From the IMG/VR virus record IMGVR_UViG_3300020008_000002, positions 1 through 59,882 of that record: DNA of 59,882 nucleotides, one strand, 5' to 3'. This document shows positions 1-59,882 of the stretch, piece after piece (within the stretch, counting starts at the first letter, position 1; every line of letters begins with the position of its first letter). The notes under the pieces are model-generated. The model searched no databases and was not told the DNA's origin. It was given only the letters and a program-made list of their open reading frames with translations. Origin of the DNA: a virus (Duplodnaviria > Caudoviricetes). The position numbers and the translations under genes are program-made.

Positions 1-131
1 ACACAATCGACATGATAACTACAGCGCTCGGCAAGAAGTTCCCAGAAGGGACAGCTGCTTATAATGAGGCTATCAAGAATATATCAGGCGGGAATAAGCA
101 AATGCTTGCTCTCCTTGAGACATCCGGACCG
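1..131. repeat. Terminal direct repeat (copy 1); assembly overlap of a circular or circularly permuted genome
   Basis: 1-131 equals 59752-59882 with one mismatch at position 5. Confidence 0.95.
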
Positions 132-3100: not shown

Positions 3101-3518
3101 AGGCCTGTTTCAAACGATTCCATCGACATTCAATGCATATGCTCTTCCTGGCCATGGCAATATACTGAACCCGGTTGACAATGCCGCAGCTGCTATTGGG
3201 TATATATCAAGTAGGTATGGGGATGTATTTCATGTCCCGGGCATAGTTTCAATGAGTAAAGGGGGGCCGTACCAAGGGTATGCAGGTGGGACTGATAACG
3301 CGCCAGGTGGCATGGCAATTGTTGGCGAGCATGGACCTGAAATGGTGTATTTGCCGAAGGGATCCAGTGTGCTCCCCAATAGTCGCCTCGGGAATGCAAT
3401 GAGCCCGAATATTGTGATCAATCCTCCAGCGATCTATCTTGACGGCAGGTTGCTTGCTGGCGGGCTAATGCCTTATATTACCAGCGCCATAAGATACAGC
3501 ACAGGAGTAATACAATAA
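12..3518 (+). CDS. Tail tape measure protein, C-terminal part, with Trp/Phe repeats and a lytic transglycosylase (SLT) domain
   Basis: 11/22-aa GKWFGDRWHDIQNVF repeats; MKESGGNPNAIN...GLFQTIPSTF SLT motif; duplicated GG.A.VGE.G.E motif. Confidence 0.92.
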   Translation: MITTALGKKFPEGTAAYNEAIKNISGGNKQMLALLETSGPSMKIFRENVANIANSVKSGGSAIAGWADVQQNFNFRMDQAKASVGAFGIQVGTAIAPLATQLVGFFTDKAMPAISAFSNWFLTYGVPSLQRFGETATKIFSDIGHYLRLFDTTGIVYSIKQLGDTIAGIIPNITSNKAAMKDLASVFLNLRDGVSQLLVSGFEIVVTVLDGLKTAAGSINLEVIISGVGRLAGDMLKLVAAIIRFDLSNIRIVIPVVKDALGLLGNAITGVVLPALDGLIVGLTKVYDFLGKNSAMAFIAKGAIIGFGVALAGIKIAEIAYWIPFVAAFWAEWAAGAWAAAAGTISATWPILAIGAVIGAVVAGIVLAVQHWGQIMDWISGKADQTRIAVEQSHEKMKIAQDQKTADGAKAAINNMEKERLGVIQKMKETNDEVEKGQLASQAKQLTNQINAQKGKLQVAEQDKKAQIQKQKELQAEMDEVQKPWYTRLWDDIMHGFQVAWNWIVNLFGGMGAWFGGVFSAAFNAIGSFFGGIGKWFGDRWHDIENVFSGVGKWFEGIGNDIWNGITKFFGDIGKWFADKWNDAIAPFKPGLDYIYQVFETISNIIRAVLGKIGQWFVSAWDSIKAVFLGIGKWFGDRWHDIQNVFGGIGKWFGDVFQGAWKFITTIFAPIGKWFGDRWHNIQNVFAGIGKWFGDIFQGAWKWITDVFSQIGKWFGDRRKDVQNIFAPVGKWIGDVFQSAWNGMVNVFSPIGKWFGDRWHDIQSAWNNVTKWFSDLWAGVMNGVHSFGKSINDGFKGIINWVVDTLNGGVHAFTDFLNFFGDGLNKLATSLGATPAVKSVTNKPIPHLASGTDSHEGGPAVVGEQGRELVWLPKGTKVTPNVPTEHLLKTGAVPGYASGTGNWMDNVVSWIGGGSKAIIDNLISALGLKAPAKKGMGDIAGELFNQVKNWAVTWVTGILPQPGGAAGGGVGFTANIPGNVGSWIATAMGLKHTPQSWASDLGTIAMKESGGNPNAINRTDSNAQAGHPSQGLFQTIPSTFNAYALPGHGNILNPVDNAAAAIGYISSRYGDVFHVPGIVSMSKGGPYQGYAGGTDNAPGGMAIVGEHGPEMVYLPKGSSVLPNSRLGNAMSPNIVINPPAIYLDGRLLAGGLMPYITSAIRYSTGVIQ

Positions 3519-9516: not shown

Positions 9517-10059
9517 ATGCTCAGAGAAAAACTAACAGGACTACGAGTCATTCTTGCAGGCGAATCATACTGGGAATGCAAAATGTCATCTGGAAAGATA
9601 TGGAGTGAATTGTCCGAAAAGTCAATAGAGCTACCGACCAAGAACGGCATGAAGCATTATCTCGTTCGTCGGATAGAATGGCTGGAAGATATTATTGGGT
9701 CAGGCGACATTAAAAATGTTAAAGAAATATACCTCCATACACCAGAAGGAGTCGCTGTTACTCATGTGGGAGACGAATATACCGGCTTCCAGTTTTCACG
9801 TGGGACTTCAGCTCTACTTACAGGCGAAAAACTAAAAAACCTACAGGTCATAGGAGCTGTTTCTGATAAAGGGACCGGTGACTGCACTTTTGCCCTTTGG
9901 GATTATCAGGTGATGAAACTCTATGTAGACACCTTGTGGGACAGAGAGCGTAAAGTGCAGTATCAAGGGCTCAACAACATACTGAACTTTAGAGCTTGGC
10001 GCGACGGTATTGTTGATATTGGCCGCCTAAATATTACTGCTATGGATGTACGTTTATGA
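9517..10059 (+). CDS. Hypothetical protein
   Basis: AGGAGG RBS before ATG 9517. Confidence 0.6.
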   Translation: MLREKLTGLRVILAGESYWECKMSSGKIWSELSEKSIELPTKNGMKHYLVRRIEWLEDIIGSGDIKNVKEIYLHTPEGVAVTHVGDEYTGFQFSRGTSALLTGEKLKNLQVIGAVSDKGTGDCTFALWDYQVMKLYVDTLWDRERKVQYQGLNNILNFRAWRDGIVDIGRLNITAMDVRL

Positions 10060-12986
10060 CAGCATTAACGGTATATCAGGTAGGCACAGCCTCATCTACG
10101 CTGTCTACCGCAGAAAACCTAATTACCACAGCAGGTGGCGCATCTAGCGCGCTACAGAATACTTCTACTGCAAATTCTGCAACCAATTGGGGTGAGGTAA
10201 CTTCCCAAGGCACTACAAACGCATGGGCCGCCACATCGACACAAGGAGCTCCTACAGGGAAAGGATGGCTGTGGGATGTAACTACGCTTGAAGGCCAAAC
10301 GATCGCCAGTGGAACATGGACATGGAACTTCAACATGGGCAACGGAGACGTGTCTCACACTACTACGGCTGATATTGTTGTTCGCTTCTACAAGCGAAGC
10401 TCAGGCGGAACTTACACTCTCATAGATACTGCCACCCAAAGCGCCCAAGGGATTACCTTTTCGACAAAGGCATTTACGGCTAGTACATCCGGCTCAGCTG
10501 CAATGGCATTCACCACTGGCGATAAGTTATACATTGATTTATGGTGCAAAATAACCAATGCGGGCAGTTCGACAACGGCAAAGCCAGGATGGCTAAAACC
10601 GAATAGTAATACAGCAGGATGGACAGGGGCTGATGTTGTAACTACTGGGTATAGTGCAACCTCATCCGGAGGAACTGTTACCGGATCAACAAAGGTGCGA
10701 GCTGTTGTTGCAACGAGCAACACAAAAAGCTCAGTCGTAAGAAACGTTGTTCGCACCATTAAAACAGTATCAACAGCAATAAGAGGAGCAGTTCGCACAT
10801 TAACAACCAAATCTATGCCGGTTAGGGCTGACGTGAGAACCCAAGTCACAAAGAGTAGTCCCCTGCGGATTGTAGCGCGAGGTGTTACAAAAGTTGCCCA
10901 GCTCAGAGACGTGGTGGCGACTAAGATTACTAAATCATCGGTTGTCAGATCGTTTATCAGGACTCTTAAATCAGTTAATTCACCTATCAGAACAGTGGCC
11001 AGGACAGCCGTCACTAAGTCCGCGCAATTAAGAGAAGTTGTTGACTCTAGATCAAGAAAATCTTCAGTGATAAGAGGAGTTGTTGCGACAAAAGTAACCA
11101 GGTCATCGGCGTTTAGAGTGGTTGCTAGAGGAGTTTCTGACGTCGCAAGAATAAGATATGCAATAGAATCAAGGATAATAAGGTCATCGGCAGTGAGGTA
11201 TGCAGCCCGCACGTTAAATACGGTAGCTGCAAGAGTTAGATCCGTAGTATCTACTAAGCATTCTTTGTCGTCTACAGAAAGAGTGGTTGTTCGCACGTTG
11301 GTAACTAAGAGTGTTATATTGCGAGCCTTGATAGCCACAAAGAAGACAGCCTCGTCTGTAATTAGGTGGGTAGTTAGATCAGGAAGAACGTTACCTGCTA
11401 CTATCAGAGGAGTAATTCGCACCCAAGTTACTAAGAGCGTGTCAATCCGGTCATCGATAGCTGCCAAGGCCACTAGGTCATTATCGACCAGAGTAGTTGC
11501 ACGCGGTATCACTCTTATAAGTAGGATAAGGGCGGTTATCAAGTCTCAACCCACAAAGTCCGTTGTCACAAGAATTGTAGTCAGGTCTCTAAAGTCAGTA
11601 GTAACTCCAGTTAGAGCAGTAGCAAAGACATTGGCATCAAAATATGCAGTGATGCGGCAGATAGTAGCATCAAAAGTGGCAAAGACGGGAGTTTTGCGGG
11701 CAGTAACGCGGACCGTAACTACTAAGACTTCAACCTCTAGAGTGATAGTAGCCACTATTAAAACTAAGTCTTCAGCTATTCGGTTAGTATCGCGCGGACG
11801 AACAGTGGCAAATACAATTCGTGGAATAATCAAGACGCTTGTGACAAAAACATCGGCTGCCAGACTCTCGGTCAGAACTTCCCTTACCAAGACTTCACAG
11901 ACAAGAACCGTCATCCGCACTCTTACCGCCAGATCTATCGTACTACGCGTTATAACCACCTCATCTGGAACTGCTGCCTCATTGTCCACCAAGTTGCGAT
12001 CTATGATTGGGACCCTGACTGCAGGATCGTCCCCTGCGAGAACAGTCATTAGAACACTTACTAGGCGCAGCGTAATATCAAGAACACTAGTCCGCACTCT
12101 TGTTATTGGTAAGTCAACGATTCGGCTAGTCACACGGTCACTGGCAACGAGGTCCGTTGCCATTCGGGCTATGGCCAGGACCTTGATTTCCAAGTCAGCT
12201 TTGATTCGGATTATGATTAGTACGCAACGAACCACTACCAGCGCCTTGCGTACCGTCTCAAGAACACTGGCTACTAAGCTAGTACCTGCCAGGATCCCAA
12301 TCAGGACGTTGGCCACTAAATCAGCTCAGGCCAGGACCTCCGTACGCTCGCTTAATACACGGACTATAATACTTCGAGTAATAACAACATCTAGTGGCAC
12401 TGCGGTATCATTATACACTAAGATACGATCAATCGTAAAATCTAGAGCAACGAGATATGCCCCCATAAGGTCGGTTTCTAGAACCGCAGTGACGAAGCAT
12501 ATAGGGATCAAAGCAGTAGCGAGAGGAATATCTCTCTACTCCTACGTCAGAGTAAGAGTGCTTGGCGCGATTAATACGTTGTATATGAGAGTGGAGATAA
12601 AAACACATCAGGTAGACACCAGTGCCATTAGACTAGTGCCTGCGACAAGAGTAAGCGGTCTGATGGCGATAAGGTCTCCGGTCCGCACATCTCATAGCAG
12701 ATCTATAGCCATGCGCCAGATGACTAGAACCAACAGGTTAGTAGCAAGTGTGCTTAGGTCTGTCGCAAGCCAAAAGAGTGCAAAGGCAATAATACTGCGT
12801 ATTATTGCCACGCAGCCTACTACGCTTGCGAAGCTAGTTTCAATACGTATAGTCACCGTGACAAATCCTATTACTCAGAACAGCACTTTTGTAGAGAGAT
12901 CTGGCAAGGCATCATTTATAGTCAGATCTGGCAAGGCATCATTTATAGTCAGATCTGGCAATGCATCATTTGCAGAAAGGAGATAA
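10056..12986 (+). CDS. 976-aa protein: beta-rich N-terminal domain plus a long, highly basic ~14-aa repeat region (putative fibre/virion protein)
   Basis: Repeats such as TKSSVVRNVVRTIK and TKSAQLREVVDSRS; Arg/Thr/Val/Ser/Ile-rich with very few Asp/Glu. Confidence 0.7.
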   Translation: MTALTVYQVGTASSTLSTAENLITTAGGASSALQNTSTANSATNWGEVTSQGTTNAWAATSTQGAPTGKGWLWDVTTLEGQTIASGTWTWNFNMGNGDVSHTTTADIVVRFYKRSSGGTYTLIDTATQSAQGITFSTKAFTASTSGSAAMAFTTGDKLYIDLWCKITNAGSSTTAKPGWLKPNSNTAGWTGADVVTTGYSATSSGGTVTGSTKVRAVVATSNTKSSVVRNVVRTIKTVSTAIRGAVRTLTTKSMPVRADVRTQVTKSSPLRIVARGVTKVAQLRDVVATKITKSSVVRSFIRTLKSVNSPIRTVARTAVTKSAQLREVVDSRSRKSSVIRGVVATKVTRSSAFRVVARGVSDVARIRYAIESRIIRSSAVRYAARTLNTVAARVRSVVSTKHSLSSTERVVVRTLVTKSVILRALIATKKTASSVIRWVVRSGRTLPATIRGVIRTQVTKSVSIRSSIAAKATRSLSTRVVARGITLISRIRAVIKSQPTKSVVTRIVVRSLKSVVTPVRAVAKTLASKYAVMRQIVASKVAKTGVLRAVTRTVTTKTSTSRVIVATIKTKSSAIRLVSRGRTVANTIRGIIKTLVTKTSAARLSVRTSLTKTSQTRTVIRTLTARSIVLRVITTSSGTAASLSTKLRSMIGTLTAGSSPARTVIRTLTRRSVISRTLVRTLVIGKSTIRLVTRSLATRSVAIRAMARTLISKSALIRIMISTQRTTTSALRTVSRTLATKLVPARIPIRTLATKSAQARTSVRSLNTRTIILRVITTSSGTAVSLYTKIRSIVKSRATRYAPIRSVSRTAVTKHIGIKAVARGISLYSYVRVRVLGAINTLYMRVEIKTHQVDTSAIRLVPATRVSGLMAIRSPVRTSHSRSIAMRQMTRTNRLVASVLRSVASQKSAKAIILRIIATQPTTLAKLVSIRIVTVTNPITQNSTFVERSGKASFIVRSGKASFIVRSGNASFAERR
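12897..12971 (+). repeat. 27-bp tandem repeat (about 2.8 copies) encoding RSGKASFIV
   Basis: agatctggcaaggcatcatttatagtc repeated. Confidence 0.85.
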
Positions 12987-15695: not shown

Positions 15696-16139
15696 TTATG
15701 GGCCATATGGCAGACTCCGAACTATAATGTCAAAGTCCTGAGCGGCATCAGGATCAAATAAGTACGGTATTGGCTGTGACGATATTGGGTAGTAACAGCC
15801 GAATAGTACTCCGGCGTACCTAGATGGACATAGTACAATTTCATCTGGATAGTACCCGGTATGCCTTTCAAACGTGCTTACCGCGTCCTCTACTAACGAA
15901 GCAGTTTCCTCTGCAACACTTATGAGCTTCAGGCAGACTCTTAGATGCTCATCTATGTACAGTGGATTAATGGGCACCTCACTAGTATTGATTGGGGTGG
16001 CAATCCGAACCATTTGAGTATCTTTGTCTGATATGTCGGGCAACAAGTGTTTGCGAACGTGGTGCAGCCACGACTTGATAAGAGATCCAGGCCTCCTGGG
16101 GTCGTAATACCTAAAGAATAGTTCTTTTTCAATTTGCAT
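15696..16139 (-). CDS. Hypothetical protein
   Basis: ORF coupled to the upstream nuclease. Confidence 0.5.
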   Translation of the reverse strand: MQIEKELFFRYYDPRRPGSLIKSWLHHVRKHLLPDISDKDTQMVRIATPINTSEVPINPLYIDEHLRVCLKLISVAEETASLVEDAVSTFERHTGYYPDEIVLCPSRYAGVLFGCYYPISSQPIPYLFDPDAAQDFDIIVRSLPYGP

Positions 16140-16836
16140 AAGCAAAGCATCTAGTGCGCATTGGACACCTAACTGCGCAGCTATCAAAAACACTCTCACA
16201 GGTACGGGGAGGGACTATCCCTGATTCTACCCCTGCAACTATCTCTTTAGCTCTCTCTATAAATGGCAGTGCAGCCACCTCATCATACCCAAAACACCAG
16301 GTAAGTATTTCTTGAGTGTTTTTGTTCTCTACCATTATGATAGCTGTTTTTATCCCTAGTAGATGCATATATAGATTTGCTTGCATATATGCATCTCTCG
16401 GTGTCTTCCCTGATTCATTTAAAGTCGTACATTTATCGTCGTTGTACCCTTTTATCTCTACTACAATTTCCTCTCCCAGCATATTAACTATTGCGTCGGG
16501 TGTAAACTTTAGCATATACTGCTCGCTTACATGCTCAGTTTCCACTTCTATTGCGTTGAAATTATCCAGTATCAACCGTTGATACTTCTCGTGTATTGAC
16601 CAGCCGTTGAGGAAATAAGCATTTACCTTAGTTCCCATTGAAGGGGAACTGACTGCTTCTTTCGGGTAGAGAATGGACAAAACATAACGTCTGGGGCAGA
16701 ACGATTTTCCCGGCTTAAGGACGTCGCTGGCATGAGCATACCCTGACCGTATCGGACGGTCAGCTGCCCATTTATCGATCGCTTCTTTTATGCCGGCCTT
16801 AAACAGCCAAGCTAGAGCTTTCTGACTTGCCCCCAT
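16129..16836 (-). CDS. Cas4-like PD-(D/E)xK exonuclease
   Basis: CPRR N-terminal Cys; TPDAI..VVEIKG; Q...Y motif; C-terminal C..C..CP...C cluster. Confidence 0.75.
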   Translation of the reverse strand: MGASQKALAWLFKAGIKEAIDKWAADRPIRSGYAHASDVLKPGKSFCPRRYVLSILYPKEAVSSPSMGTKVNAYFLNGWSIHEKYQRLILDNFNAIEVETEHVSEQYMLKFTPDAIVNMLGEEIVVEIKGYNDDKCTTLNESGKTPRDAYMQANLYMHLLGIKTAIIMVENKNTQEILTWCFGYDEVAALPFIERAKEIVAGVESGIVPPRTCESVFDSCAVRCPMRTRCFAYAN

Positions 16837-19673: not shown

Positions 19674-19752
19674 GGTATTGGACTACCAATTTTTTTTGGA
19701 AAAATAAAACTCGTTAAGTACGATATCTCAACGAGTTTTCAAGGAGGATAGA

Positions 19753-20835
19753 TTATTGATCAGCCCTGATTTTCTTTATAATTGAGTGTACACTTGAGAC
19801 CGGAATGCTTAGCTCACCTGCAATTGACCGGACTGTTCTGTTTGGCCCATCGGCTATGGCTGACCGAACAGCGATCTCTCGTTCAGACTGAATGGGGATA
19901 TTGAGAATGATCTTCCTGTCTGTCTTTTCCCGAACAGTCTGAACAAGACTGTTTAGGTCAACGTTGGACAAATCAACTGAACAAGACAGCTGTTCAGTGT
20001 TCGGATGTTCAGCTTGTTCAGTGTTCGGATGTTCAGCTTGTTCAGTGTTCGGATGTTCGGGCTGAACAAGGTCTGAACAAGGGCTGAACAAGACATCTGA
20101 ACAGGCTGAACAAGATTGCTGAACAGGCTGAACAAGGTCTGAACAAGGGCTGAACAAGACATCTGAACAGGCTGAACAAGATTGCTGAACAGGCTGAACA
20201 AGGTCTGAACAAGGTCTGAACAAGACAGCTGAACAGTCTGAACAAGATTGCTGAACAGGCTCGATTTCCTGAACACTTGTCTTGTTCAGACTGGACAACT
20301 GAACAAGACAAGTGGACAACTGGCTGATCAGTTCAGCTGTCGGATCTTGTTTTTGATCAGCTTCGTCCTGTTCGGCTCTTGGCAACGTTGCAACAAGGGC
20401 GAAAACTATAACAACTATCACAGATCGTGCCATAGAGAATGCGGGCACTGATAATCCTAAACTGCTCATCGCTTGATTCACGGTTTCGTTATTAATACCA
20501 TGTACGGTTATCGTGGTTGATACAATACATGCAACAAAACCAAGAAGCAACGCAACAGATGCGAGCCACACCTTCTTGTATGGCTCGTCTTTATACCTGC
20601 AATCGCGGAACCGGGCAAGAACACCGAAGAATAGACCGTCAACCGCACACGCTTGGACACTTGCCCAACCGATGTCGAACCAGCCGGTATTCGGAAGATC
20701 GAACTGACTAGTCAAAAACGCAATCGTTGCGGCTATAAAGCCAATCAGGAGAAAGAACAAAGAAAGCCGTTGAATTGCGGCTTCAAAGAATTCAATGGCA
20801 TAATCCATGCCTTTAATGATAGGATTATTGTTCAT
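19753..20835 (-). CDS. Multi-TM membrane protein with low-complexity repeat linker and C-terminal HTH (Spd/DUF2637-like architecture)
   Basis: About four N-terminal TM segments; repeat linker; RTVRSIAGELSIPVSSVHSIIKKI HTH. Confidence 0.7.
   Translation of the reverse strand: MNNNPIIKGMDYAIEFFEAAIQRLSLFFLLIGFIAATIAFLTSQFDLPNTGWFDIGWASVQACAVDGLFFGVLARFRDCRYKDEPYKKVWLASVALLLGFVACIVSTTITVHGINNETVNQAMSSLGLSVPAFSMARSVIVVIVFALVATLPRAEQDEADQKQDPTAELISQLSTCLVQLSSLNKTSVQEIEPVQQSCSDCSAVLFRPCSDLVQPVQQSCSACSDVLFSPCSDLVQPVQQSCSACSDVLFSPCSDLVQPEHPNTEQAEHPNTEQAEHPNTEQLSCSVDLSNVDLNSLVQTVREKTDRKIILNIPIQSEREIAVRSAIADGPNRTVRSIAGELSIPVSSVHSIIKKIRADQ
19991..20257. repeat. Bipolar array of CTGAACA/TGTTC motifs
   Basis: 24-bp unit x3 (19991-20060, TGTTC orientation), then 18 CTGAACA copies (20062-20257) in a 66-bp unit x3. 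Confidence 0.92.
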
Positions 20836-31179: not shown

Positions 31180-33360
31180 TTATTGGCAAACTTCGCAAAC
31201 GGTTGATGTACACACATTTGCGCTTTCTGACTTGCTCTCCATCCAGCGAGGTTGGATCCCGAATTTATTAATATCGACCGTTGACTTCTCTATTTGCGTA
31301 GCGGCTTGCGCTCTTAGATAGTAAGTGGTCTTTAAGCCTTTCTTCCAGCAAAGAAAGTACATGTCATTTATCTTCTTGCCACTCGCCTCGCTAATGTACA
31401 AATTAAATGACTGCCCCTGATCAATCCACTTTTGGCGGCGGCTTGCGCACTCGATGAGAATGCGCGGATCAATCTCGAATGCCGTCTTGTAACAATCTTT
31501 GATCTCTACCGGTATCTCTGGTATATGTTGCACAGAACCGTCGTAGTACTTCAACTTCTCTAGCATCGAACGATCCCAGAGACCGATCTCTTTCAAATCA
31601 GCGATCAAGAATCGATTAACACTGGTAAAATCTCCGCTTAGATTGGACTTTACATACAAATTACGATATTGCGGCTCGATGGACTGACTACATCCTGCAA
31701 TGATAGAGATGGTCGCGGTAGGAGCAATGGCCGTGACATTGCTGTTGCGCATGCCTTGCACATATATCTTCTGGGATAATTTCCCCCATTCAAGCTTTTT
31801 TGACTGATCAACCGTCTCGATATTTGTATCTATAGGCATAATGCCGTAGTACCAATCAGAACCACGTATCGAGCTATAAGATCCGCGCTCCATCGCTAAG
31901 TCACTACTGGCCTCTATGGCACAATATGATAAAAGTTCCATCGACTCGTCTGCTACTCTGATTGCCTCTTGGCTGTTGTATGAAAGCCCCATCTTATAGA
32001 GCATATCCTGAAATCCCATAATCCCCAGCCCTATAGGTCTATGCTTCTTATTGGCATTTTCAGCCTCTGGAACCGGATAATAGTTAATGTCGATGACGTT
32101 ATCAAGCATCCGAACCGCTATTTGTACGGTTGATTTGAGCAAGTCTGCGTCAAGCTTGCCGTCTACCGTATGCCGACTGAGATTAACGCTACCGAGATTG
32201 CAAACTGCTATTTCGTCCTTACTTGTATTGAGCATTATCTCGGTGCACAAATTGCTGCTATGTATTGTTCCGCAATGCAGTTGGGGATTCCGATCATTAG
32301 ATGTGTCTTTAAAGGTCACCCAAGGGTGACCTGTCTCATAAACGCTCCCCAAATGATGTCTCCAGAGCGCTTTCGCAGATACTCTCTTGAAGAGCTTGAT
32401 TTCACCTTTGTCTGCCATCGCCTCATACTCTTTGTATCTATTTGCAAATCCGGATGAATAGAGATCATGCAGGTCTGGCACATCATTTGGACTGAACAGC
32501 GTCCAATCCTCGTCAGCCTCGACTCTGCGCATGAATTCATCTGAAATCCAACAAGCAGTATGCAGGTCGGGGCATCGTCGGCGCTCATCACCGGTGTTTT
32601 TGCAGAGATCAAGGAAGTCCTCGATATCCAAATGCCAATTCTCTAGATAGACGCAAACAGCTCCTTGCCGTTTGCCGCCTTGATTAACGGCTACCGCCGT
32701 GTCATTAACGATCTTTAGAAATGGAATCACCCCTTGGCTGTTCCCGTGCGTCCCCTCGATGACCTTGCCTAAAGAACGAATATTCGTCCAATCATTGCCT
32801 AGCCCACCCGCATACTTTGATAACAGAGCGTTATCTTTAATTGCGTCGAATATCTCTTCTAGACTGTCCCTTACCGTCGTAAGGAAGCAACTAGCACATT
32901 GCTGCTTTAATGTCCCTGCATCGAATAACGTCGGAGTTGCGGGCGAGTATAGCATGAGCGACATTACTTCGTAGAATTCTATCGCTCTGGCTTCCTTATC
33001 GTCCTCATTAATGGCCAGCGCCATTGCAATTCTCATCCAGAGACACTGAGGCGGTTCTATGACGACTGCGAGGTCGTTACGGAGTAGATAGCGATCGTAG
33101 AGCGTCTGCAAGCCCGGATAGTCGAACAGGAGATCTCTCTCTGGTCTTATTGCCTTGCCAAGCCGCGCAATATCAAAGATCCGCAAATCAGGGGTCATTC
33201 TTTTTGCAACAATGGATTTATCCATATAGATAGGGAGATACTGCTCGTACGACTCGAATTCGTCCGGCATGATCTCTTGAAGCAACAACCCCGCTGCTTC
33301 ATATGTCTTGTCGGGATAAAATTCTATTTGATCCCGTAATGAGTAAATCTCCGGTGTCAT
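31180..33360 (-). CDS. nrdA: Ribonucleotide reductase alpha subunit (class I)
   Basis: ATPTLF; SCFL; SSNLCTEI; VCNLGS; APTATIS; KTTYYLR; C-terminal CEVCQ. Confidence 0.95.
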
Positions 33361-33419
33361 GGTTGATCTCCTTTATTTTGAAGTGTATGTTGCCGATCTT
33401 CAAAAGGCAACCTGATAGT

Positions 33420-33448
33420 AGTATACGACATCGTTGACTACTTGTCAA
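33420..33448 (-). promoter_or_regulatory. Conserved phage promoter, copy 4 (nrdAB)
   Basis: TTGACA-agtagtcaacgatgtcg-TATACT. Confidence 0.8.
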
Positions 33449-33466
33449 GGGGCCAGGACCAATGGA

Positions 33467-33495
33467 TTGACATTGGCGATTGAGAATGCTATAAT
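33467..33495 (+). promoter_or_regulatory. Consensus promoter for tmk and the downstream mini-array
   Basis: TTGACA-17-TATAAT. Confidence 0.78.
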
Positions 33496-33521
33496 GAAGC
33501 ACAACATCCAAGGAGGAACTC

Positions 33522-34193
33522 ATGCTCATCACTTTTGAAGGCATCGATGGGTCCGGTAAATCGACCCAGACTAGGCTCTTGTATGAATATCTTCTGCCAA
33601 AGGTAGATTCACAAATTATCATAACCAGCGAGCCTTACAGTACCGCGGCAAGATCACTGCTTGACCAAAATGAGTTCTATTCCATCGATTCATCAGTAGC
33701 AAGATCGTTTGTCTATTTCGCGGACAGGGCAATCCATATAGAGGAGCTGATCAACCCGGCTCTCAAATCGGGCCATATTGTAATATGCGACCGATACATA
33801 GATAGCAGTATTGCATATCAAAGTGTTATAAGTGGTCTTTCTGTCGGCTTTATATACGAGTGCAACTCAGTTTGCTCGTATGGCATTGTCCCGAATCTTA
33901 CTCTCCTGCTTGACACTCCGACTGACGTGGCGTGTGCCCGAAAAATGCATGATGGTGAAGTGATGAACGAAGATACCGAGTTGACTTTATGTAAGATCAG
34001 GAGCTCCTATCTAGCTATTGCCCAGAAAGAACCAGATCGCATAAAGATAATTGATTCCAATCAATCTAGGTATGATGTTCACGATGAGATCGTTATGTTT
34101 GTAGATAGAGCACTAGATATCGACATCTGTATCAGATGCAGGTCTAGGCGACAGGTTGACCGAACTAAGCACTGTTTCCATTGCAGGGCCTAG
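33522..34193 (+). CDS. tmk: Thymidylate kinase
   Basis: ITFEGIDGSGKSTQ; ADRAIH; ICDRYIDSSIAYQ. Confidence 0.93.
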   Translation: MLITFEGIDGSGKSTQTRLLYEYLLPKVDSQIIITSEPYSTAARSLLDQNEFYSIDSSVARSFVYFADRAIHIEELINPALKSGHIVICDRYIDSSIAYQSVISGLSVGFIYECNSVCSYGIVPNLTLLLDTPTDVACARKMHDGEVMNEDTELTLCKIRSSYLAIAQKEPDRIKIIDSNQSRYDVHDEIVMFVDRALDIDICIRCRSRRQVDRTKHCFHCRA

Positions 34194-34205
34194 GAGCATA
34201 CATGA

Positions 34206-34323
34206 GTGGGGCGACAACCGTTTTCGCGACTTAGCGATTGAAACTACACTCTCATAGATACTGCCACCCAAAGAGCCACAAGGGATGTGATAACCGTTTT
34301 TCGCGACTTTTGCGATTGGAAAC
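34206..34323 (+). CRISPR. Cas-less mini-CRISPR array: repeat - spacer - degenerate repeat
   Basis: R1 GTGGGGCGACAACCGTTTTCGCGACTTAGCGATTGAAAC (34206-34244); R2 GTGATAACCGTTTTTCGCGACTTTTGCGATTGGAAAC (34287-34323); spacer of about 37-42 nt matching 10413-10453. Confidence 0.75.
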
Positions 34324-34339
34324 AAGTACCTCCTTTTTT

Positions 34340-34372
34340 AAAGTCGGTAGATTATTGTATCTACCGACTTTT
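34340..34372 (+). terminator. Intrinsic terminator after the mini-array
   Basis: aaagtcggtagat / atctaccgactttt. Confidence 0.75.
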
Positions 34373-34420
34373 AGTTCTCAACGAGTTATAGAAAATTGCC
34401 AAAATACCCAGTCAAACACC

Positions 34421-34449
34421 TTGACAAGTAGTCAACGATGGCGTATACT
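34421..34449 (+). promoter_or_regulatory. Conserved phage promoter, copy 5
   Basis: TTGACA-agtagtcaacgatggcg-TATACT. Confidence 0.82.
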
Positions 34450-34497
34450 ATGGCCAGATACAATTTTTGTACCTGATAAATTATCAAGGAGACCACC

Positions 34498-34797
34498 ATG
34501 ATTACTTCAAAGATAAGCTGCCAAGATGAGATCGTCAGATTCACCGACGATTGGGCAGAAGGCGATATAGAAATGATAATGAACAGCGACTACTGCTTCG
34601 AGCTGATAGGGAGCGACAAAGCAATGGAAGAACTAGATCTCAAGATTATCCACGAGCCGGAATCCGTTATTCTTTGGAGCGACGGCGGGAAGCCGTTCTG
34701 TTTCTCTAATGTCGATCTAGAGGATTTGATCAGCGACTATGCTAAGGACTATGGTCGGGCAGAGCGTGTTTCAGGCCTTAGTGGGATCTACTGCTAG
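34498..34797 (+). CDS. Acidic hypothetical early protein
   Basis: AGGAG RBS directly after promoter copy 5. Confidence 0.6.
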   Translation: MITSKISCQDEIVRFTDDWAEGDIEMIMNSDYCFELIGSDKAMEELDLKIIHEPESVILWSDGGKPFCFSNVDLEDLISDYAKDYGRAERVSGLSGIYC

Positions 34798-34819
34798 TAG
34801 ATTCCGAGAGGAGAACGTT

Positions 34820-35131
34820 ATGAAGTCCAAAAATATAACCATCACGTGCTACCAAGACGATAAAGAGGTTGCTATGAATATCGAGGCTTTTGTAGCGAAC
34901 GGCCTGGCTTTGCACCGAGACATAAGCGGCAAGCATTGCCGATGGTCGATAACATGCGTAAGTAGCTCAAACATCATATCTTACTTCAAAGCCTCAAAGT
35001 CAAAGGCTCTCGCTGTATTTGAGAGCATATACCCTCTCTTCGGGGAATGGAGTTCTGATGTCTTTTCTTGGGAAAACCGAGAAAAAATATATCAGATAAA
35101 CCAAAAGAGAATAGAAATTCTCGGAGAATAA
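34820..35131 (+). CDS. Hypothetical protein
   Basis: GAGGAG RBS. Confidence 0.55.
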   Translation: MKSKNITITCYQDDKEVAMNIEAFVANGLALHRDISGKHCRWSITCVSSSNIISYFKASKSKALAVFESIYPLFGEWSSDVFSWENREKIYQINQKRIEILGE

Positions 35132-53366: not shown

Positions 53367-54374
53367 ATGGCAATCTCTACCAGCGCGGTGTCTCTTGCAG
53401 ATTACGCTCTGCAAAGTAATAGCCCGCTTGTTCGCGCTATTACCTACTCGTTGATTCTTTACTCAAATGTCATTCAAGACGTACCTCTGATGACCAAGAG
53501 AAGCCTCGTGGCTAACGGAGCACGTTTTGAGGGCAATTTACCAACGGTTAACTGGGCACAGCTTAATGCGGAAGGCGTTACGACCAAAGGTACTCCTACC
53601 GCTTATCAAGAGCAGGTTTATCTAATTCGTAACTACATCGATGTTGACAAGATGTTGGTTGACGAAGAGAACGCAATCGTAGACCCACGCGCTGCTCAGT
53701 CAGAGGCATATCTGAAAGCACTGACATACGATATCAACTTCAAGTTCATTAATAACGATCATGTTACAGGTGACGCTAACTCATTTGTCGGTATCAGATC
53801 GCGAATTGATAACGGATCGACGTTCGGGGTTCGCTCTGAGAACAAAATCGATGCGGGAGGCACCGACCTAAGCCAGGCAGGAACTACGCAGGCAACCGCC
53901 AACAAGTTCCTTGAGCAACTTGATCAGCTGTTATGGTCAGTTGATTCCCCAGATGGCCAGGGAGTCATTCTTTACATGAATGAGGTAATGAAACGGCGGT
54001 TCGCGTTTGCAATGCGAACTATGGGCACAAGCGGTGGATTTGAGATCACTAAGGACCAGTTTGATAGAACAGTCACACAGTACAAAGGAGCAGTTATTCG
54101 CGATCCCGGATACAAGGCAGATCAAACCACGCGCATCATTACGAGCACCGAGACGAACACAGGTGCGAACGGTAGCTCTACGTTTACCAGCATCTATGCT
54201 GTAAACTATGACACCGAGCACTTCTTTGGATGGCAGTTTAGTGAACCAAACGTTCAAGACCTAGGATTGCTTAATAACGGAGTAATTTATAGAACATTGA
54301 TTGATTGGGCTGTTGGCTTTATGAACGCATCGACACGTTCATTAGGGCGTTTATACGACATTAAGATTGCATAA
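53367..54374 (+). CDS. Major capsid protein
   Basis: 335 aa after the scaffold; LPTVNWAQLNAE...IDVDK...FINND...SFVGI pattern. Confidence 0.82.
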   Translation: MAISTSAVSLADYALQSNSPLVRAITYSLILYSNVIQDVPLMTKRSLVANGARFEGNLPTVNWAQLNAEGVTTKGTPTAYQEQVYLIRNYIDVDKMLVDEENAIVDPRAAQSEAYLKALTYDINFKFINNDHVTGDANSFVGIRSRIDNGSTFGVRSENKIDAGGTDLSQAGTTQATANKFLEQLDQLLWSVDSPDGQGVILYMNEVMKRRFAFAMRTMGTSGGFEITKDQFDRTVTQYKGAVIRDPGYKADQTTRIITSTETNTGANGSSTFTSIYAVNYDTEHFFGWQFSEPNVQDLGLLNNGVIYRTLIDWAVGFMNASTRSLGRLYDIKIA

Positions 54375-58234: not shown

Positions 58235-58440
58235 TCGCTCTAAGGCGCTATCTCGCAATGGACGGACGAATGGGATGGTGTCCTGACTGGTATCCGTTGT
58301 TTGTGGCTGCCGACAGGTGTCATTGCCCTCCTTGGGAACTGGCGGCACAGTCAGTTTGGTGGAGAGATAGGGCGTTGATAGCGAATTCCGCAGAGAATTA
58401 CGCAAGAGAGCAGAAAGAAAAAATGAGGGACAAAGGATAA
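58201..58440 (+). CDS. Tail assembly chaperone frameshift extension (gpGT-like)
   Basis: The -1 frame is open from the heptamer to TAA 58438-58440. Confidence 0.7.
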   Translation, partial: PKPVSAEDEELIALRRYLAMDGRMGWCPDWYPLFVAADRCHCPPWELAAQSVWWRDRALIANSAENYAREQKEKMRDKG

Positions 58441-59882
58441 TGGCAATTGTAGCATCGCAATTGACGGCAAAGATAGAAGTCACCGGTGTATCGCAGGCAA
58501 AATCTGATCTTCAGAGTATGGGGGCGAGTTCCCAAATTGCGCAAGATCAGCTAGATGCGCTTGCCACTGCGTCCGTCAATGTCGGAGCTGCGTTGGCTAA
58601 TAGGTTCGTCTCTGAGGTGAATAACGCGAAGACAGGTATGCAGACATTAGCGGTAGAAGCGGAGGCCGCTGGGCTAGATGTCACGAAGTTCACGACTCTC
58701 CAAGTTAAAGCTGCCGAGGTTGCTGCGCGTTATGGGCTTGCTCAGGCTCAGGCGGCGTCGGCTCAACAACGTGCCAATGAGGTAGCCATCAGCGGGACGG
58801 CATCTGCCGAGGAGATAGCGCTTGCACAAGAGAAAGCAGCGGTGGCGGCAACTAAAGTAGATGTCGCTGAGAATAATGCTGCGGTTGCTATTGGTAAAGT
58901 AGAGGCAGAGGCCACAAGACTGACGACTGCGATGAATGAGCAGGCAGACGCCTCGTCTAACAGCGCAACTCACACGGGCATATTCGGGAACGCGCTTAAT
59001 GCAGTGAAAGGAAGCTCAGGTGGGTTCTTTGCAGGTATAAAAAGCGCTGCTGGCGGGCTCCTGGAATTCGGGTCGAAAGTAGGGATGACTATTATGGGTG
59101 TGCAAGCGATGGGATCCATATTTATAGGTGCAGCTACTGCGTCCGGGAAGATGATAGGCGACTTCCAAGAGCAGCTGACGAAGCTGGTAACTACGGCCAA
59201 TGAATCAAAAAGCAACATAGCAATGGTCAGCAAGGGTATTATTGCTATGGCGGGGGAGACAGCGACTCCGGTCAAGGATCTCGGGGACGCAATGTATTGG
59301 GTAGAAAGTGCGGGTTATCACGGTGCAGACGGGCTGAACGTGCTGAAGATAGCAGCGCAAGGAGCCAAAGCGGAGAATGCTAACGTTACCGATGTCGTAA
59401 AGGTCGTTACCGCGGCAATGAATACATATAGAGGGAGCAATCTGGGCGCAGCTGAGACGATGAACACGATGATAGCTGCAGTGTCAAGTGGGTCTATGAC
59501 CTTACAAGGATTGTCAGGAGCCATAAGTAATGTTCTGCCTGTGTCTGCAAAATTTGGGATAGCAATGGGGGATACAGTGGCGGGACTCGCCACAATGACC
59601 ATGCAAGGTGACGATGCGTCGTCAGCTGCTACCCATCTCCGACAAGTAATACTCGCACTTGAGGCTCCCGCGTCCAAAGGGGCCTCATCACTGAAAGATA
59701 TCGGTCTATCTACGCAGCAAGTAGCCGACTCAATGCGCAAATCGTTGCCGGACACCATCGACATGATAACTACAGCGCTCGGCAAGAAGTTCCCAGAAGG
59801 GACAGCTGCTTATAATGAGGCTATCAAGAATATATCAGGCGGGAATAAGCAAATGCTTGCTCTCCTTGAGACATCCGGACCG
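58440..59882 (+). CDS. Tail tape measure protein, N-terminal part (continues across the junction; about 1609 aa in total)
   Basis: ATG at 58440 (MAIVASQLTAKIEV...) overlaps the preceding stop; Ala/Gly-rich TMP-like sequence; in frame with ATG 59763, which equals position 12; missing from the ORF track because it has no stop before the window end. Confidence 0.9.
   Translation, partial: MAIVASQLTAKIEVTGVSQAKSDLQSMGASSQIAQDQLDALATASVNVGAALANRFVSEVNNAKTGMQTLAVEAEAAGLDVTKFTTLQVKAAEVAARYGLAQAQAASAQQRANEVAISGTASAEEIALAQEKAAVAATKVDVAENNAAVAIGKVEAEATRLTTAMNEQADASSNSATHTGIFGNALNAVKGSSGGFFAGIKSAAGGLLEFGSKVGMTIMGVQAMGSIFIGAATASGKMIGDFQEQLTKLVTTANESKSNIAMVSKGIIAMAGETATPVKDLGDAMYWVESAGYHGADGLNVLKIAAQGAKAENANVTDVVKVVTAAMNTYRGSNLGAAETMNTMIAAVSSGSMTLQGLSGAISNVLPVSAKFGIAMGDTVAGLATMTMQGDDASSAATHLRQVILALEAPASKGASSLKDIGLSTQQVADSMRKSLPDTIDMITTALGKKFPEGTAAYNEAIKNISGGNKQMLALLETSGP
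59752..59882. repeat. Terminal direct repeat (copy 2)
   Basis: Matches 1-131; lies inside the tape measure reading frame. Confidence 0.95.

What the first reader, a model, noticed from the sequence alone, without database searches (positions are those of the whole stretch)
34206..34323. Cas-less mini-CRISPR array whose only spacer matches the phage's own cationic repeat gene
Seen in the sequence: a repeat ending in the canonical CRISPR 3' handle ATTGAAAC, with an internal TCGC..GCGA stem, then a spacer and a degenerate second repeat. The unit lies between tmk (consensus promoter at 33467) and a terminator (34340), so it should be transcribed. Spacer 34245-34273 (TACACTCTCATAGATACTGCCACCCAAAG) is identical to 10413-10441 in the 976-aa gene. 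The match continues with one mismatch and one indel to about 10453. No cas operon is present. The protospacer 5' flank is ACT, and the crRNA would be the same sense as the mRNA. Known precedent: viral mini-arrays and repeat-like RNAs can borrow or inhibit host Cas complexes. Inferred options: (a) host Cascade is directed at related phages with a functional PAM while this phage escapes; (b) non-cutting repression of the phage's own late gene; (c) an RNA decoy anti-CRISPR.
Basis: partly seen in the sequence, partly recalled or inferred. Interest (0 to 1): 0.92.

Follow-up and report, generated by a model that had tools for sequence, protein, structure and literature searches.

The report
Phage-borne type I-D mini-CRISPR array
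A soil phage carries a two-repeat, one-spacer CRISPR array copied from its likely host's type I-D system, and the spacer matches the phage's own tail-fibre-like gene at a site lacking the recognition motif, which makes it a clear new example of a known kind of virus-borne mini-array.

Summary
R1 (34208-34244), a 42-nt spacer (34245-34286) and a degenerate R2 (34287-34323) lie between tmk and a hairpin. The spacer copies 10413-10453 of the 976-aa gene, and the similarity stops at the repeat borders.

A model built from 11 cas-associated repeat variants hits only R1 and R2 in the window. That 37-nt repeat family occurs in 22 of 169 genomes of the class that includes a Ktedonobacter sp. MAG. It lies next to type I-D cas genes in G079 and in two soil contigs.

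Nine distinct spacers from these arrays match relatives of this phage. Six of the nine have GT at the -3 and -2 positions, which fits the published I-D PAM, GTN. The phage's own protospacer is flanked by ACT (Thr119), a position where three of 13 homologues have Val (GTN).

My best reading is a captured host repeat-spacer-repeat unit, co-transcribed with tmk. It is harmless to the carrier and may direct host Cascade against kin that keep the PAM. No such kin was found and there are no RNA data.

Cyanophage N-1 (type I-D-like repeats) and the archaeal viruses SPV1/SPV2 are direct precedents. This is a new member of a known kind, of moderate interest.

The parts
33467..33495 (+). Sigma-70-type promoter of the tmk and mini-array cassette (TTGACA-17-TATAAT)
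   Evidence: 12 of 12 consensus positions, with TG before the -10 box. Function is inferred.
33522..34193 (+). tmk (dTMP kinase) with a C-terminal CxxC...CxxC tail. Its stop codon lies 14 nt before R1.
   Evidence: TIGR00041, 132.4 bits against a cut-off of 83.25.
34208..34244 (+). Repeat R1 in the 37-nt register. The 3' 25 nt (34220-34244) carry the hairpin TCGC/GCGA and the 8-nt handle ATTGAAAC. The 5' 12 nt have diverged from the family.
   Evidence: 28.3 bits, E 1e-6, model positions 13-37; 24/25 to L069-type repeats; 24/25 to a unit in G079.
34245..34286 (+). Spacer of 42 nt, copied from the phage lineage's own 976-aa gene
   Evidence: 29 nt exact, then 1 mismatch and 1 extra base. Similarity ends at both repeat borders.
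34287..34323 (+). Degenerate terminal repeat R2. The stem is intact, the loop is 1 nt longer, and an extra G sits in the handle region.
   Evidence: (14.3 bits, E 0.018, model positions 1-37).
34340..34371 (.). Perfect 13-bp hairpin with T/A runs on both sides. It is terminator-like and possibly bidirectional.
   Evidence: I1; fold. The terminator scan did not call it.
10410..10453 (+). Self protospacer (10413-10453) with its 5' flank ACT (10410-12, codon Thr119), in the conserved N-terminal domain of the 976-aa gene
10056..12986 (+). 976-aa tail-module gene. It has an N-terminal domain of about 210 aa shared with other phage fibre-like proteins, then cationic repeats of about 14 aa.
   Evidence: 54 homologues of the N-domain, none above 50% identity; no Pfam match.

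Best explanation
This is a genuine repeat-spacer-repeat unit of CRISPR origin. It belongs to a 37-nt, type I-D-associated repeat family of soil Ktedonobacteria-class bacteria and is carried by a roughly 60-kb tailed phage of those bacteria.

Inferred history: a host acquired the spacer from this phage lineage's fibre-like gene at a GTN-flanked site (Val119). An ancestor of this phage captured the host's repeat-spacer-repeat unit into a moron-like slot downstream of tmk. The present phage has ACT (Thr119) at its own site, so it is not recognised.

Inferred mechanism: the unit is co-transcribed with tmk from a consensus promoter. Host Cas6 cuts at the hairpins of R1 and R2 and yields a crRNA that starts AUUGAAAC-UACACUC.... 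Host I-D Cascade loaded with this crRNA ignores the carrier, which has no PAM. It would destroy closely related phages that still have GTN at that site. This is heterotypic superinfection exclusion.

What is shown: the anatomy, family membership, the I-D association, the link between host group and phage group, the GTN preference, and the non-PAM self flank.

What is inferred: transcription, processing, loading into Cascade, the existence of susceptible kin, and the order of events.
For: (1) The duplication is bounded by the repeats. It is 29 nt exact and 41/42 overall, and the flanks are at chance level.

(2) A model built from 11 cas-associated repeat variants hits only R1 and R2 in the window. 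By my reading, R1 keeps 18 of the 20 invariant columns of the family alignment. All stem and handle positions are kept in R1, and the stem is kept in R2.

(3) The family core is present in 22 of 169 genomes of the class of G001 (a Ktedonobacter sp. MAG), with 0 hits for the reversed control pattern. It is also present in 13 soil-metagenome contigs with at least 9 copies each.

(4) The association with type I-D is direct. G079 has cas3', cas10d, csc2, csc1 and cas6 beside its 44-repeat array. Homologues lie beside the arrays in L064 and L076.

(5) The host and phage groups are linked. Nine distinct family spacers match relatives of this phage at 75% or more over their full length, for example 36/38, 34/37 and 32/35. 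The reversed and shuffled controls, run on the first 508 spacers (7 of the 9 hits), gave 0 hits at 70% or more. Three of the nine come from genomes of the class (G078, G079, G082). A 26.5-kb contig syntenic with the phage (MCP 79% identical) is binned in G090 of the same class.

(6) PAM: 6 of the 9 best protospacers have GT at -3/-2. For the first 7, 5 had GT, binomial P 1.8e-5. The published I-D PAM is GTN/GTH (passages of PMC10212523).

(7) The phage's own flank is ACT, which is codon 119. Among 13 aligned homologues that position is T in 6, V in 3, S in 2, A in 1 and poorly aligned in 1. GTN therefore occurs naturally at this site.

(8) The cassette has a 12/12 promoter and a hairpin at its end.

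(9) The array sequence is identical in runs of three studies.

(10) Precedent: SPV1/SPV2 mini-arrays target each other, and the carrier's orthologous locus is mutated. Cyanophage N-1 carries a Cas-less array with type I-D-like 37-bp repeats.
Against: No phage with a GTN-flanked copy of the protospacer was found. The 29-nt spacer core has 0 exact hits in IMG/VR. The N-domain has no close relative in IMG/VR and none above 50% identity among 5.8 billion proteins. None was found in G090 or in 18 related viral records. The target population is therefore hypothetical.

The two complete relatives (G170, G171) lack tmk, the RNR genes and the array, so conservation cannot be tested.

R2 has three single-base insertions and scores only 14.3 bits. 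R1's first 12 nt are diverged, and the 3' end of the spacer has a mismatch and an indel. This pattern also fits decay.

The host leader motif CCTCTCGCAAC is absent next to the array.

The spacer length of 42 nt is in the upper tail of the family. By my tally, 9 of 664 family spacers are 42 nt or longer.

In other type I systems, a crRNA that matches a PAM-mutated target can trigger primed adaptation (recalled, not tested for I-D). That would be a cost to the carrier.

No integrase was found among the ORFs I scanned, but only 30 ORFs were scanned. The time window for exclusion is therefore unclear.
Confidence: 0.5

Rival explanations
1. Neutral relic. A repeat-spacer-repeat piece of a host array that targeted this phage lineage was captured by illegitimate recombination and is decaying. 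It is transcribed only as the 3' UTR of tmk and has no role.
For: R2 carries three 1-nt insertions. The 3' end of the spacer has a mismatch and an indel that would frameshift the source gene, so these changes probably arose after capture. R1's 5' 12 nt match the family consensus at only about half of the positions. There is no leader motif. No relative carries the array, and no target kin was found.
Against: The changes avoid the parts needed to make a guide. In R1 the stem, the handle and the first 29 nt of the spacer are all intact. In R2 the stem is intact. The unit sits in a cassette with a consensus promoter and a closing hairpin. With a single genome, selection cannot be measured.
Confidence: 0.27
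2. RNA-based anti-CRISPR. The high-copy phage transcript soaks up host Cas6 and Cascade, either as a 'blank' guide whose only target lacks a PAM or as a captured regulatory mini-array that represses host cas genes.
For: Phage copies of host regulatory mini-arrays are described (passages of bioRxiv 10.1101/2023.03.03.530964). G079 has such an intergenic unit between a WYL/WCX regulator gene and the TIR-TPR/cas3' operon. Its first repeat is 24/25 identical to the phage's R1, closer than it is to G079's own canonical repeat. As in host regulatory units, the second repeat is degenerate.
Against: The phage spacer shows no similarity to the spacer of the G079 unit (my reading). A search for GTN plus at least 9 of 10 seed matches in 919,670 nt of host loci gave 2 hits against 1.7 expected by chance. 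The true host is not among those loci. A decoy or a repressor has no need for a 29-nt exact match to a phage structural gene. Solitary-repeat decoys (Racr, recalled) have no spacer.
Confidence: 0.15
3. Self-regulation. The crRNA guides Cascade to bind, without cutting, the phage's own 976-aa gene and tune late expression.
For: The only substantial match of the spacer anywhere is the phage's own gene.
Against: The self site has ACT where this family prefers GT at -3/-2, so Cascade should not open the DNA. The crRNA has the same sense as the mRNA, so it cannot pair with it. Known regulatory guides use partial matches at promoters, not a match of about 41 nt inside a coding region.
Confidence: 0.04
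4. Not CRISPR-derived. A chance duplication of 10413-10453 that happens to be flanked by a local direct repeat.
For: There are only two repeat copies, and they differ by indels.
Against: R1's 3' 25 nt are 24/25 identical to repeats of long, cas-adjacent arrays. A pattern taken from R1 retrieved 13 arrays of 9-72 copies. The family model hits only R1 and R2 in the window. The duplication ends at the repeat borders.
Confidence: 0.02

Closest known systems
Virus-borne mini-CRISPR arrays of the Sulfolobales viruses SPV1/SPV2 (Medvedeva et al. 2019, PMC6858448; passages read)
   Same: One or two spacers. No viral cas operon. Repeats resemble the host's. Spacers are drawn from the same virus lineage. 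The carrier's own orthologous locus is altered so that self-targeting is prevented. The proposed role is heterotypic superinfection exclusion.
   Different: Those are archaeal viruses, and their arrays are preceded by host-like leaders with promoters. Reciprocal targeting between co-occurring strains was seen. Here the carrier is a bacterial tailed phage with type I-D repeats. There is no leader motif, and the array is co-transcribed with tmk. Self-tolerance would rest on the flank (ACT, not GTN) while 29 nt stay identical. No targeted kin is known.
CRISPR array of Nostoc cyanophage N-1 (Chenard et al. 2016, PMC4916379; passages read)
   Same: A Cas-less array on a tailed phage. The 37-bp repeats belong to the host's type I-D ('DR5') kind and end in ATTGAAAC/G. 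The authors propose capture from a host and use against competing phages.
   Different: N-1 has five repeats, four spacers of unknown origin and an AT-rich leader, and its transcription was shown. Here there is one spacer of known origin (the phage's own gene), the likely host is a Chloroflexota-class bacterium rather than a cyanobacterium, and there are no expression data.
Regulatory mini-arrays in CRISPR-cas loci and their phage copies (Shmakov et al., bioRxiv 10.1101/2023.03.03.530964; passages read)
   Same: A two-repeat unit with a degenerate distal repeat. Type I-D loci are among those with such units. G079 has one whose first repeat is 24/25 identical to R1.
   Different: Regulatory spacers match cas promoters only partially, and phage copies share the spacer seed with the host unit. 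Here the spacer is a near-full copy of a phage gene, and no cas-locus target was found.
Solitary repeat units / RNA anti-CRISPRs
   Same: Phage-encoded RNA that mimics a host CRISPR repeat, without cas genes.
   Different: Racrs are repeats without a genuine spacer. This unit has a spacer bounded by two repeats.

Membership tests
CRISPR array (repeat-spacer-repeat of CRISPR origin) | Two or more direct repeats of CRISPR size flanking a spacer of CRISPR size | tested here: met
   R1 is 37 nt, the spacer 42 nt and R2 37 nt. By my tally, 9 of 664 family spacers are 42 nt or longer, so the length is rare but within range.
CRISPR array (repeat-spacer-repeat of CRISPR origin) | Repeats homologous to the repeats of cas-associated arrays | tested here: met
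   Family model: R1 28.3 bits (E 1e-6), R2 14.3 bits (E 0.018), and no other hit below E 0.28 in the window. Caveat: the arrays used for the model were found with patterns taken from R1, so R1's score is partly circular.
CRISPR array (repeat-spacer-repeat of CRISPR origin) | Spacer derived from a mobile element, with similarity ending at the repeat borders | tested here: met
   The match to 10413-10453 covers the spacer only, and flank similarity is at chance level.
Type I-D repeat family (Ktedonobacteria-class variant) | 37-nt repeat with a short hairpin followed by an 8-nt 5' handle ending in GAAAC | tested here: met
   Alignment A2. R1 has TCGC-loop-GCGA plus ATTGAAAC. The 8-nt handle and 29-nt 3' handle of I-D crRNAs are described in passages of PMC10212523.
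Type I-D repeat family (Ktedonobacteria-class variant) | Arrays of the family lie next to cas10d/csc2/csc1/cas3'/cas6 | tested here: met
   G079: TIGR03158, TIGR03174, TIGR03157 and TIGR03159 all score far above their cut-offs, and the cas6 model TIGR01877 only just clears its cut-off (60.6 against 58.65 bits). Homologues lie beside the arrays in L064 and L076. Not seen within 18 kb of the G001 array.
Type I-D repeat family (Ktedonobacteria-class variant) | GTN PAM 5' of protospacers | tested here: met
   6 of 9 distinct spacers' best protospacers have GT at -3/-2. 5 of the first 7 gave P 1.8e-5.
Virus-borne mini-CRISPR array (Medvedeva/Faure sense) | One or two spacers on a viral genome without cas effector or adaptation genes | tested here: met
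   The window is a complete viral record. tblastn with the I-D Cas proteins of G079 gave no hit in the window at E 1e-8. There is only a Cas4-like nuclease below the Cas4 cut-off. Only 30 phage ORFs were scanned against family libraries.
Virus-borne mini-CRISPR array (Medvedeva/Faure sense) | Host-like leader with a promoter upstream of the first repeat | tested here: not met
   R1 starts 14 nt after the tmk stop codon. The motif CCTCTCGCAAC, shared by three host leaders, is absent near the array. Transcription would come from the tmk promoter.
Virus-borne mini-CRISPR array (Medvedeva/Faure sense) | Spacer targets related viruses while the carrier's own locus is protected | tested here: inconclusive
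   The carrier's locus has a non-PAM flank. No related virus with the protospacer was found.
Regulatory mini-array (CreR/CreA-like) copied by a phage | Spacer seed plus PAM matches a cas promoter, or equals the spacer of the host unit | tested here: inconclusive
   2 seed hits against 1.7 expected in 919,670 nt of host loci. No similarity to the G079 unit's spacer. The true host locus is unknown.
Solitary repeat unit / Racr | Repeat-like RNA without a genuine spacer | tested here: not met
   A spacer of mobile-element origin lies between two repeats.

The most novel reading that the evidence does not exclude
The array is the host's own immune memory of this phage, stolen and turned around. A phage that escaped a host spacer by changing the PAM codon (Val GTN to Thr ACT, two transitions) captured that same repeat-spacer-repeat unit. 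It now makes every infected cell destroy kin that have not escaped. In effect, a CRISPR escape mutation plus the captured spacer becomes a kin-discrimination, or speciation, device in a bacterial phage. A similar variation at the PAM codon (GTC/GTG against ATC/ACG) is seen at a capsid-gene protospacer among this phage's relatives.
Probability: 0.3. Interest if true: 0.65.

Novelty: new member of a known kind. Interest (0 to 1): 0.5.

Why it matters
This is a clean, testable bacterial example of a virus using host CRISPR machinery. It has a single guide of known origin, an identified subtype (I-D) and PAM, and a carrier whose own target differs from a functional one only in the flanking codon. 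It assigns a whole group of uncultured soil phages of about 60 kb to Ktedonobacteria-class hosts through spacer matches. It extends Cas-less viral arrays to Chloroflexota. If the array is active, it would show that a PAM escape mutation plus capture of the matching spacer can set up exclusion between near-identical phages. That is the mechanism proposed for archaeal viruses to drive speciation. It does not reveal a new kind of system.

Tried and rejected
**Rfam.** A scan of 33000-35000 found nothing relevant, only a chance snoRNA hit at E 3.6. The window has no tRNAs.

**Searches for the repeat.**
- The exact R1 core had 0 hits in IMG/VR and 0 hits as a 20-mer in metagenomes.
- blastn of 33400-34500 against INPHARED phages found no match.

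**Host spacers against the window itself.**
- G001 and G079 spacers matched over at most 14 nt.
- The 450 metagenome spacers also matched over at most 14 nt.
- For all 664 spacers, the best ungapped match was 29/38, at the orthologous capsid-gene site with flank ATT. The reversed control reached a maximum of 0.69.
- No host spacer in hand targets this phage.

**Relatives.**
- tmk homologues in IMG/VR are only 29-36% identical and carry no repeat core.
- G170 and G171, both complete, share only structural genes with the window. They have no family repeat above control level.
- The model found nothing significant in 283,875 nt of relatives. The best hit, E 0.078, lies inside a tape-measure-like gene.
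- A repeat in G171 that looked CRISPR-like turned out to be an iteron cluster.
- None of the 59 metagenome contigs carrying repeats is related to the phage by tblastx.

**Microhomology between the protospacer flanks and the repeat ends.** This is at chance level.

**Expression.** No RNA holder was listed for this DNA, so expression is untested. Of the phage, runs X3 to X5 hold only short contigs.

**Tools and material I could not use.**
The contigs encoding the N-domain homologues P0003-P0056 therefore could not be inspected for GTN-flanked sites or arrays.
- Cluster look-up gave no organism names.
Table S10 and supplementary file 6 of the Shmakov preprint (viral mini-arrays; I-D mini-arrays) and the supplements of Medvedeva et al. 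may list comparable cases that I could not see.
- No structure or complex prediction was run, because none bears on the question.

Full report
**What the window is.** The window is a whole IMG/VR virus record of 59,882 bp that CheckV rates as complete. Its GC content is 46%. It encodes a large terminase, an SPP1-type portal, a major capsid protein, a D5-type primase-helicase and both RNR subunits. It also encodes dTMP kinase, thymidylate synthase and a DNA methyltransferase, and dCTP deaminase. It is a tailed phage.

**The observation.**
- The tmk stop codon is at 34191-34193.
- R1 follows 14 nt later. In the 37-nt register it spans 34208-34244 and ends in ...GTTTTCGCGACTTAGCGATTGAAAC.
- The next 42 nt (34245-34286) copy 10413-10453 of the 976-aa gene. 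The first 29 nt are exact, followed by one mismatch and one extra base.
- R2 (34287-34323) repeats R1 with three single-base insertions and a few substitutions.
- A perfect 13-bp hairpin follows at 34340-34371. The terminator scan did not call it.

The array-to-gene similarity does not extend into the flanks. In 3000 random windows, 70% scored at least as well as the upstream flank and 32% at least as well as the downstream flank. The duplicated segment is therefore exactly what lies between the repeats, as expected for a spacer made by CRISPR adaptation.

Contigs of 151 nt from runs of two other studies cover the array with no differences. The odd indels are real.

**Is R1 a CRISPR repeat?** Yes.
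- A degenerate pattern taken from R1 found 25 places in 185,579 species genomes. One of them is a 17-repeat array in a Ktedonobacter sp. MAG (G001).
- In that genome's class (169 genomes), a 25-nt R1 query with up to 3 mismatches hit G001. It also hit a single unit in G079 at 24/25.
- G079 also has a 44-repeat array with a sister repeat. It sits 3.7 kb from an operon with type I-D cas3', cas10d (in two ORFs), csc2, csc1 and cas6. All of these score above the NCBIfam cut-offs except the small C-terminal cas10d ORF (52.7 against 60 bits), and cas6 only just clears its cut-off.
- A looser pattern found 59 soil-metagenome contigs, 13 of them with 9-72 copies. Their consensus repeats are 37 nt. The closest ones equal R1's 3' 25 nt at 24/25.
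- Homologues of Cas6 (58-59% identical to G079's), Csc1, Csc2 and Cas3' lie beside the arrays in L064 and L076.
- The family core occurs in 22 of 169 genomes of the class, nine of them with two or more copies. The reversed control pattern had no hit. Two of these genomes, G077 and G124, are unpublished and enter only this count.
- A covariance model built from 11 repeat variants hits only R1 (28.3 bits, E 1e-6) and R2 (14.3 bits, E 0.018, full length) in the window, on both strands. R1's score is partly circular, because the arrays were found with R1-derived patterns. R2 does not fit those patterns, so its hit is less circular.

**Host link.** No family spacer matches the window itself beyond chance. 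The phage's relatives, however, are targeted.
- The capsid protein found 23 IMG/VR loci at 44-79% identity.
- It also found a 26.5-kb syntenic contig binned in G090 of the same class. That contig's GC is 45.5%, against about 53-54% for the host loci, so binning alone is weak evidence.
- I tested 664 family spacers against 449,843 nt of these relatives. Nine distinct spacers matched at 75% or more over their full length.
- Examples are G082 spacer 62 at 36/38 and 35/38, L072 spacer 12 at 34/37, L048 spacer 32 at 32/35, G078 spacer 23 at 30/35 and G079 spacer 42 at 29/37.
- Reversed and shuffled versions of the first 508 spacers gave no hit at 70% or more.
- Arrays of this family, including three anchored in genomes of the class, therefore remember this phage group.

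**PAM.**
- Six of the nine best protospacers carry GT at -3/-2 (GTT, GTA, GTA, GTT, GTG, GTG). The other three have ATG, AAG and ATC.
- For the first seven spacers, five had GT, binomial P 1.8e-5 at a rate of 1/16.
- This agrees with the GTN (Synechocystis) and GTH (Microcystis) PAMs described in the I-D review (passages).
- The phage's own protospacer is preceded by ACT, which is exactly codon 119 (Thr).
- In an alignment with 13 homologues of the N-terminal domain, that position is T in 6, V in 3, S in 2, A in 1 and poorly aligned in 1. Val, a GTN codon, is natural there.
- The capsid-gene protospacer of G082 spacer 62 shows the same pattern among relatives, with the flank codons GTC/GTG against ATC/ACG.

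**How it most likely works.**
- The cassette has a 12/12 consensus promoter and is closed by the hairpin. It lies between two divergent copies of the phage's standard promoter, at 33420-33448(-) and 34421-34449(+). It is therefore a self-contained, moron-like unit, and the array would be the 3' part of the tmk transcript.
- The parts needed to make one guide are the parts that are intact. These are R1's stem and 8-nt handle, the first 29 nt of the spacer, and R2's stem.
- R1's 5' 12 nt, R2's loop and handle region and the spacer's 3' end have drifted.
- A crRNA from this unit, loaded into host I-D Cascade, should ignore the carrier (ACT) and attack close kin with GTN.
- The extra base in the spacer would frameshift the source gene, so it probably arose after capture.

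**What is not shown.**
- Transcription, processing and loading are inferred.
- No kin phage with the protospacer exists in the collections I could search.
- No relative shares the tmk locus, so conservation cannot be assessed.
- The host leader motif is absent next to the array.
- A spacer of 42 nt or more is rare in the family, 9 of 664 by my tally.
- A decaying relic therefore remains a serious rival (0.27).
- An RNA anti-CRISPR role (0.15) is kept alive by the G079 intergenic unit. It lies between a WYL/WCX regulator gene and the TIR-TPR/cas3' operon, and its first repeat is 24/25 identical to R1. This is the kind of regulatory mini-array, sometimes copied by phages, that Shmakov et al. describe. 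However, the spacers are unrelated, and no seed-plus-PAM target was found in the host loci in hand (2 hits against 1.7 expected).
- Self-repression is unlikely, because the site has no PAM and the guide is the same sense as the mRNA.

**Comparison and novelty.**
- Cas-less arrays on phages are known. Cyanophage N-1 carries five 37-bp repeats of the type I-D kind, and mini-arrays with one or two spacers are known from archaeal viruses.
- Three things are new here: the host group (a Chloroflexota class with no phage-borne array in the papers my search listed), the identified origin of the single spacer, and the state of the self site (29 nt identical but PAM-less).
- I file it as a new member of a known kind, with interest 0.5.

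**Unpublished genomes.** Nothing beyond the count rests on G077 and G124.

Noticed in passing
L037 about 1440-1525 (- strand), which is G079:C2 about 19740-19821: A host intergenic mini-array. A repeat-like unit (GTTTTCGCGACTTAGCGATTGAAAT) is followed by a spacer of about 32 nt and a degenerate second repeat. It lies between a WYL/WCX regulator gene and a TIR-TPR gene that precedes type I-D cas3'. It resembles the regulatory mini-arrays described for I-D loci. Its first repeat is closer to the phage's R1 (24/25) than to G079's own array repeat.
   Followed up: partly
window 16129-16836 (-): The phage encodes a Cas4-like PD-(D/E)XK nuclease with one N-terminal and four C-terminal cysteines (phrog_1706, E 1e-23). 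It falls below the NCBIfam Cas4 cut-off (26 bits against 65) and has no Pfam hit. In I-D systems Cas4 selects GTN-flanked spacers. Whether this nuclease relates to the array is unknown.
   Followed up: partly
window 33420-33448 (-) and 34421-34449 (+): The tmk and mini-array cassette is bracketed by two divergent, near-identical copies of the phage's standard promoter (TTGACA-17-TATACT, with a palindrome over the -35 box). The cassette itself uses a different, perfect-consensus promoter. This looks like an inserted moron.
   Followed up: partly
L163, L116, L149, L150, L139, L132, L156, L130, L158; window 53970-54007: The capsid-gene protospacer of G082 spacer 62 (peptide LYMNEVMKRRFA) is conserved across the phage group. 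The codon in the PAM position alternates between GTC/GTG and ATC/ACG/ATT, as expected for PAM escape through Val-to-Ile or Val-to-Thr changes.
   Followed up: partly
L050, L055, L095, L091; L052, L065, L097; L057, L073; L081, L085, L068: Many soil-metagenome contigs carry solitary or two-copy degenerate units of the same repeat family outside long arrays. Several recur in near-identical contexts, for example downstream of a conserved promoter-like sequence. They may be regulatory units or array remnants.
   Followed up: no
window 34100-34193: The dTMP kinase has a C-terminal extension of about 25 residues with two CxxC motifs (a zinc-ribbon-like tail), encoded by a short direct DNA repeat (34127-34142 and 34172-34187).
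   Followed up: no
window 3-3518 and 58440-59882: ORFs run off both ends of the record in the same direction. One long gene, probably the tape measure, appears split by the record's ends, so the genome is probably circularly permuted or cut arbitrarily.
   Followed up: no
L143 15440-15550 (G171): A cluster of ATAAGAACTTTTTCTAATTG iterons in a related complete phage. At first it looked like a CRISPR-type repeat ending in ATTGAAA, but it is not one.
   Followed up: yes
L039 13254-16388 (-): In G079, cas10d is read as two ORFs (851 aa and 174 aa), which match the first 776 and the last 118 positions or so of the Csc3 model. It may be a frameshift, or a separately translated small-subunit-like C-terminus.
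   Followed up: no
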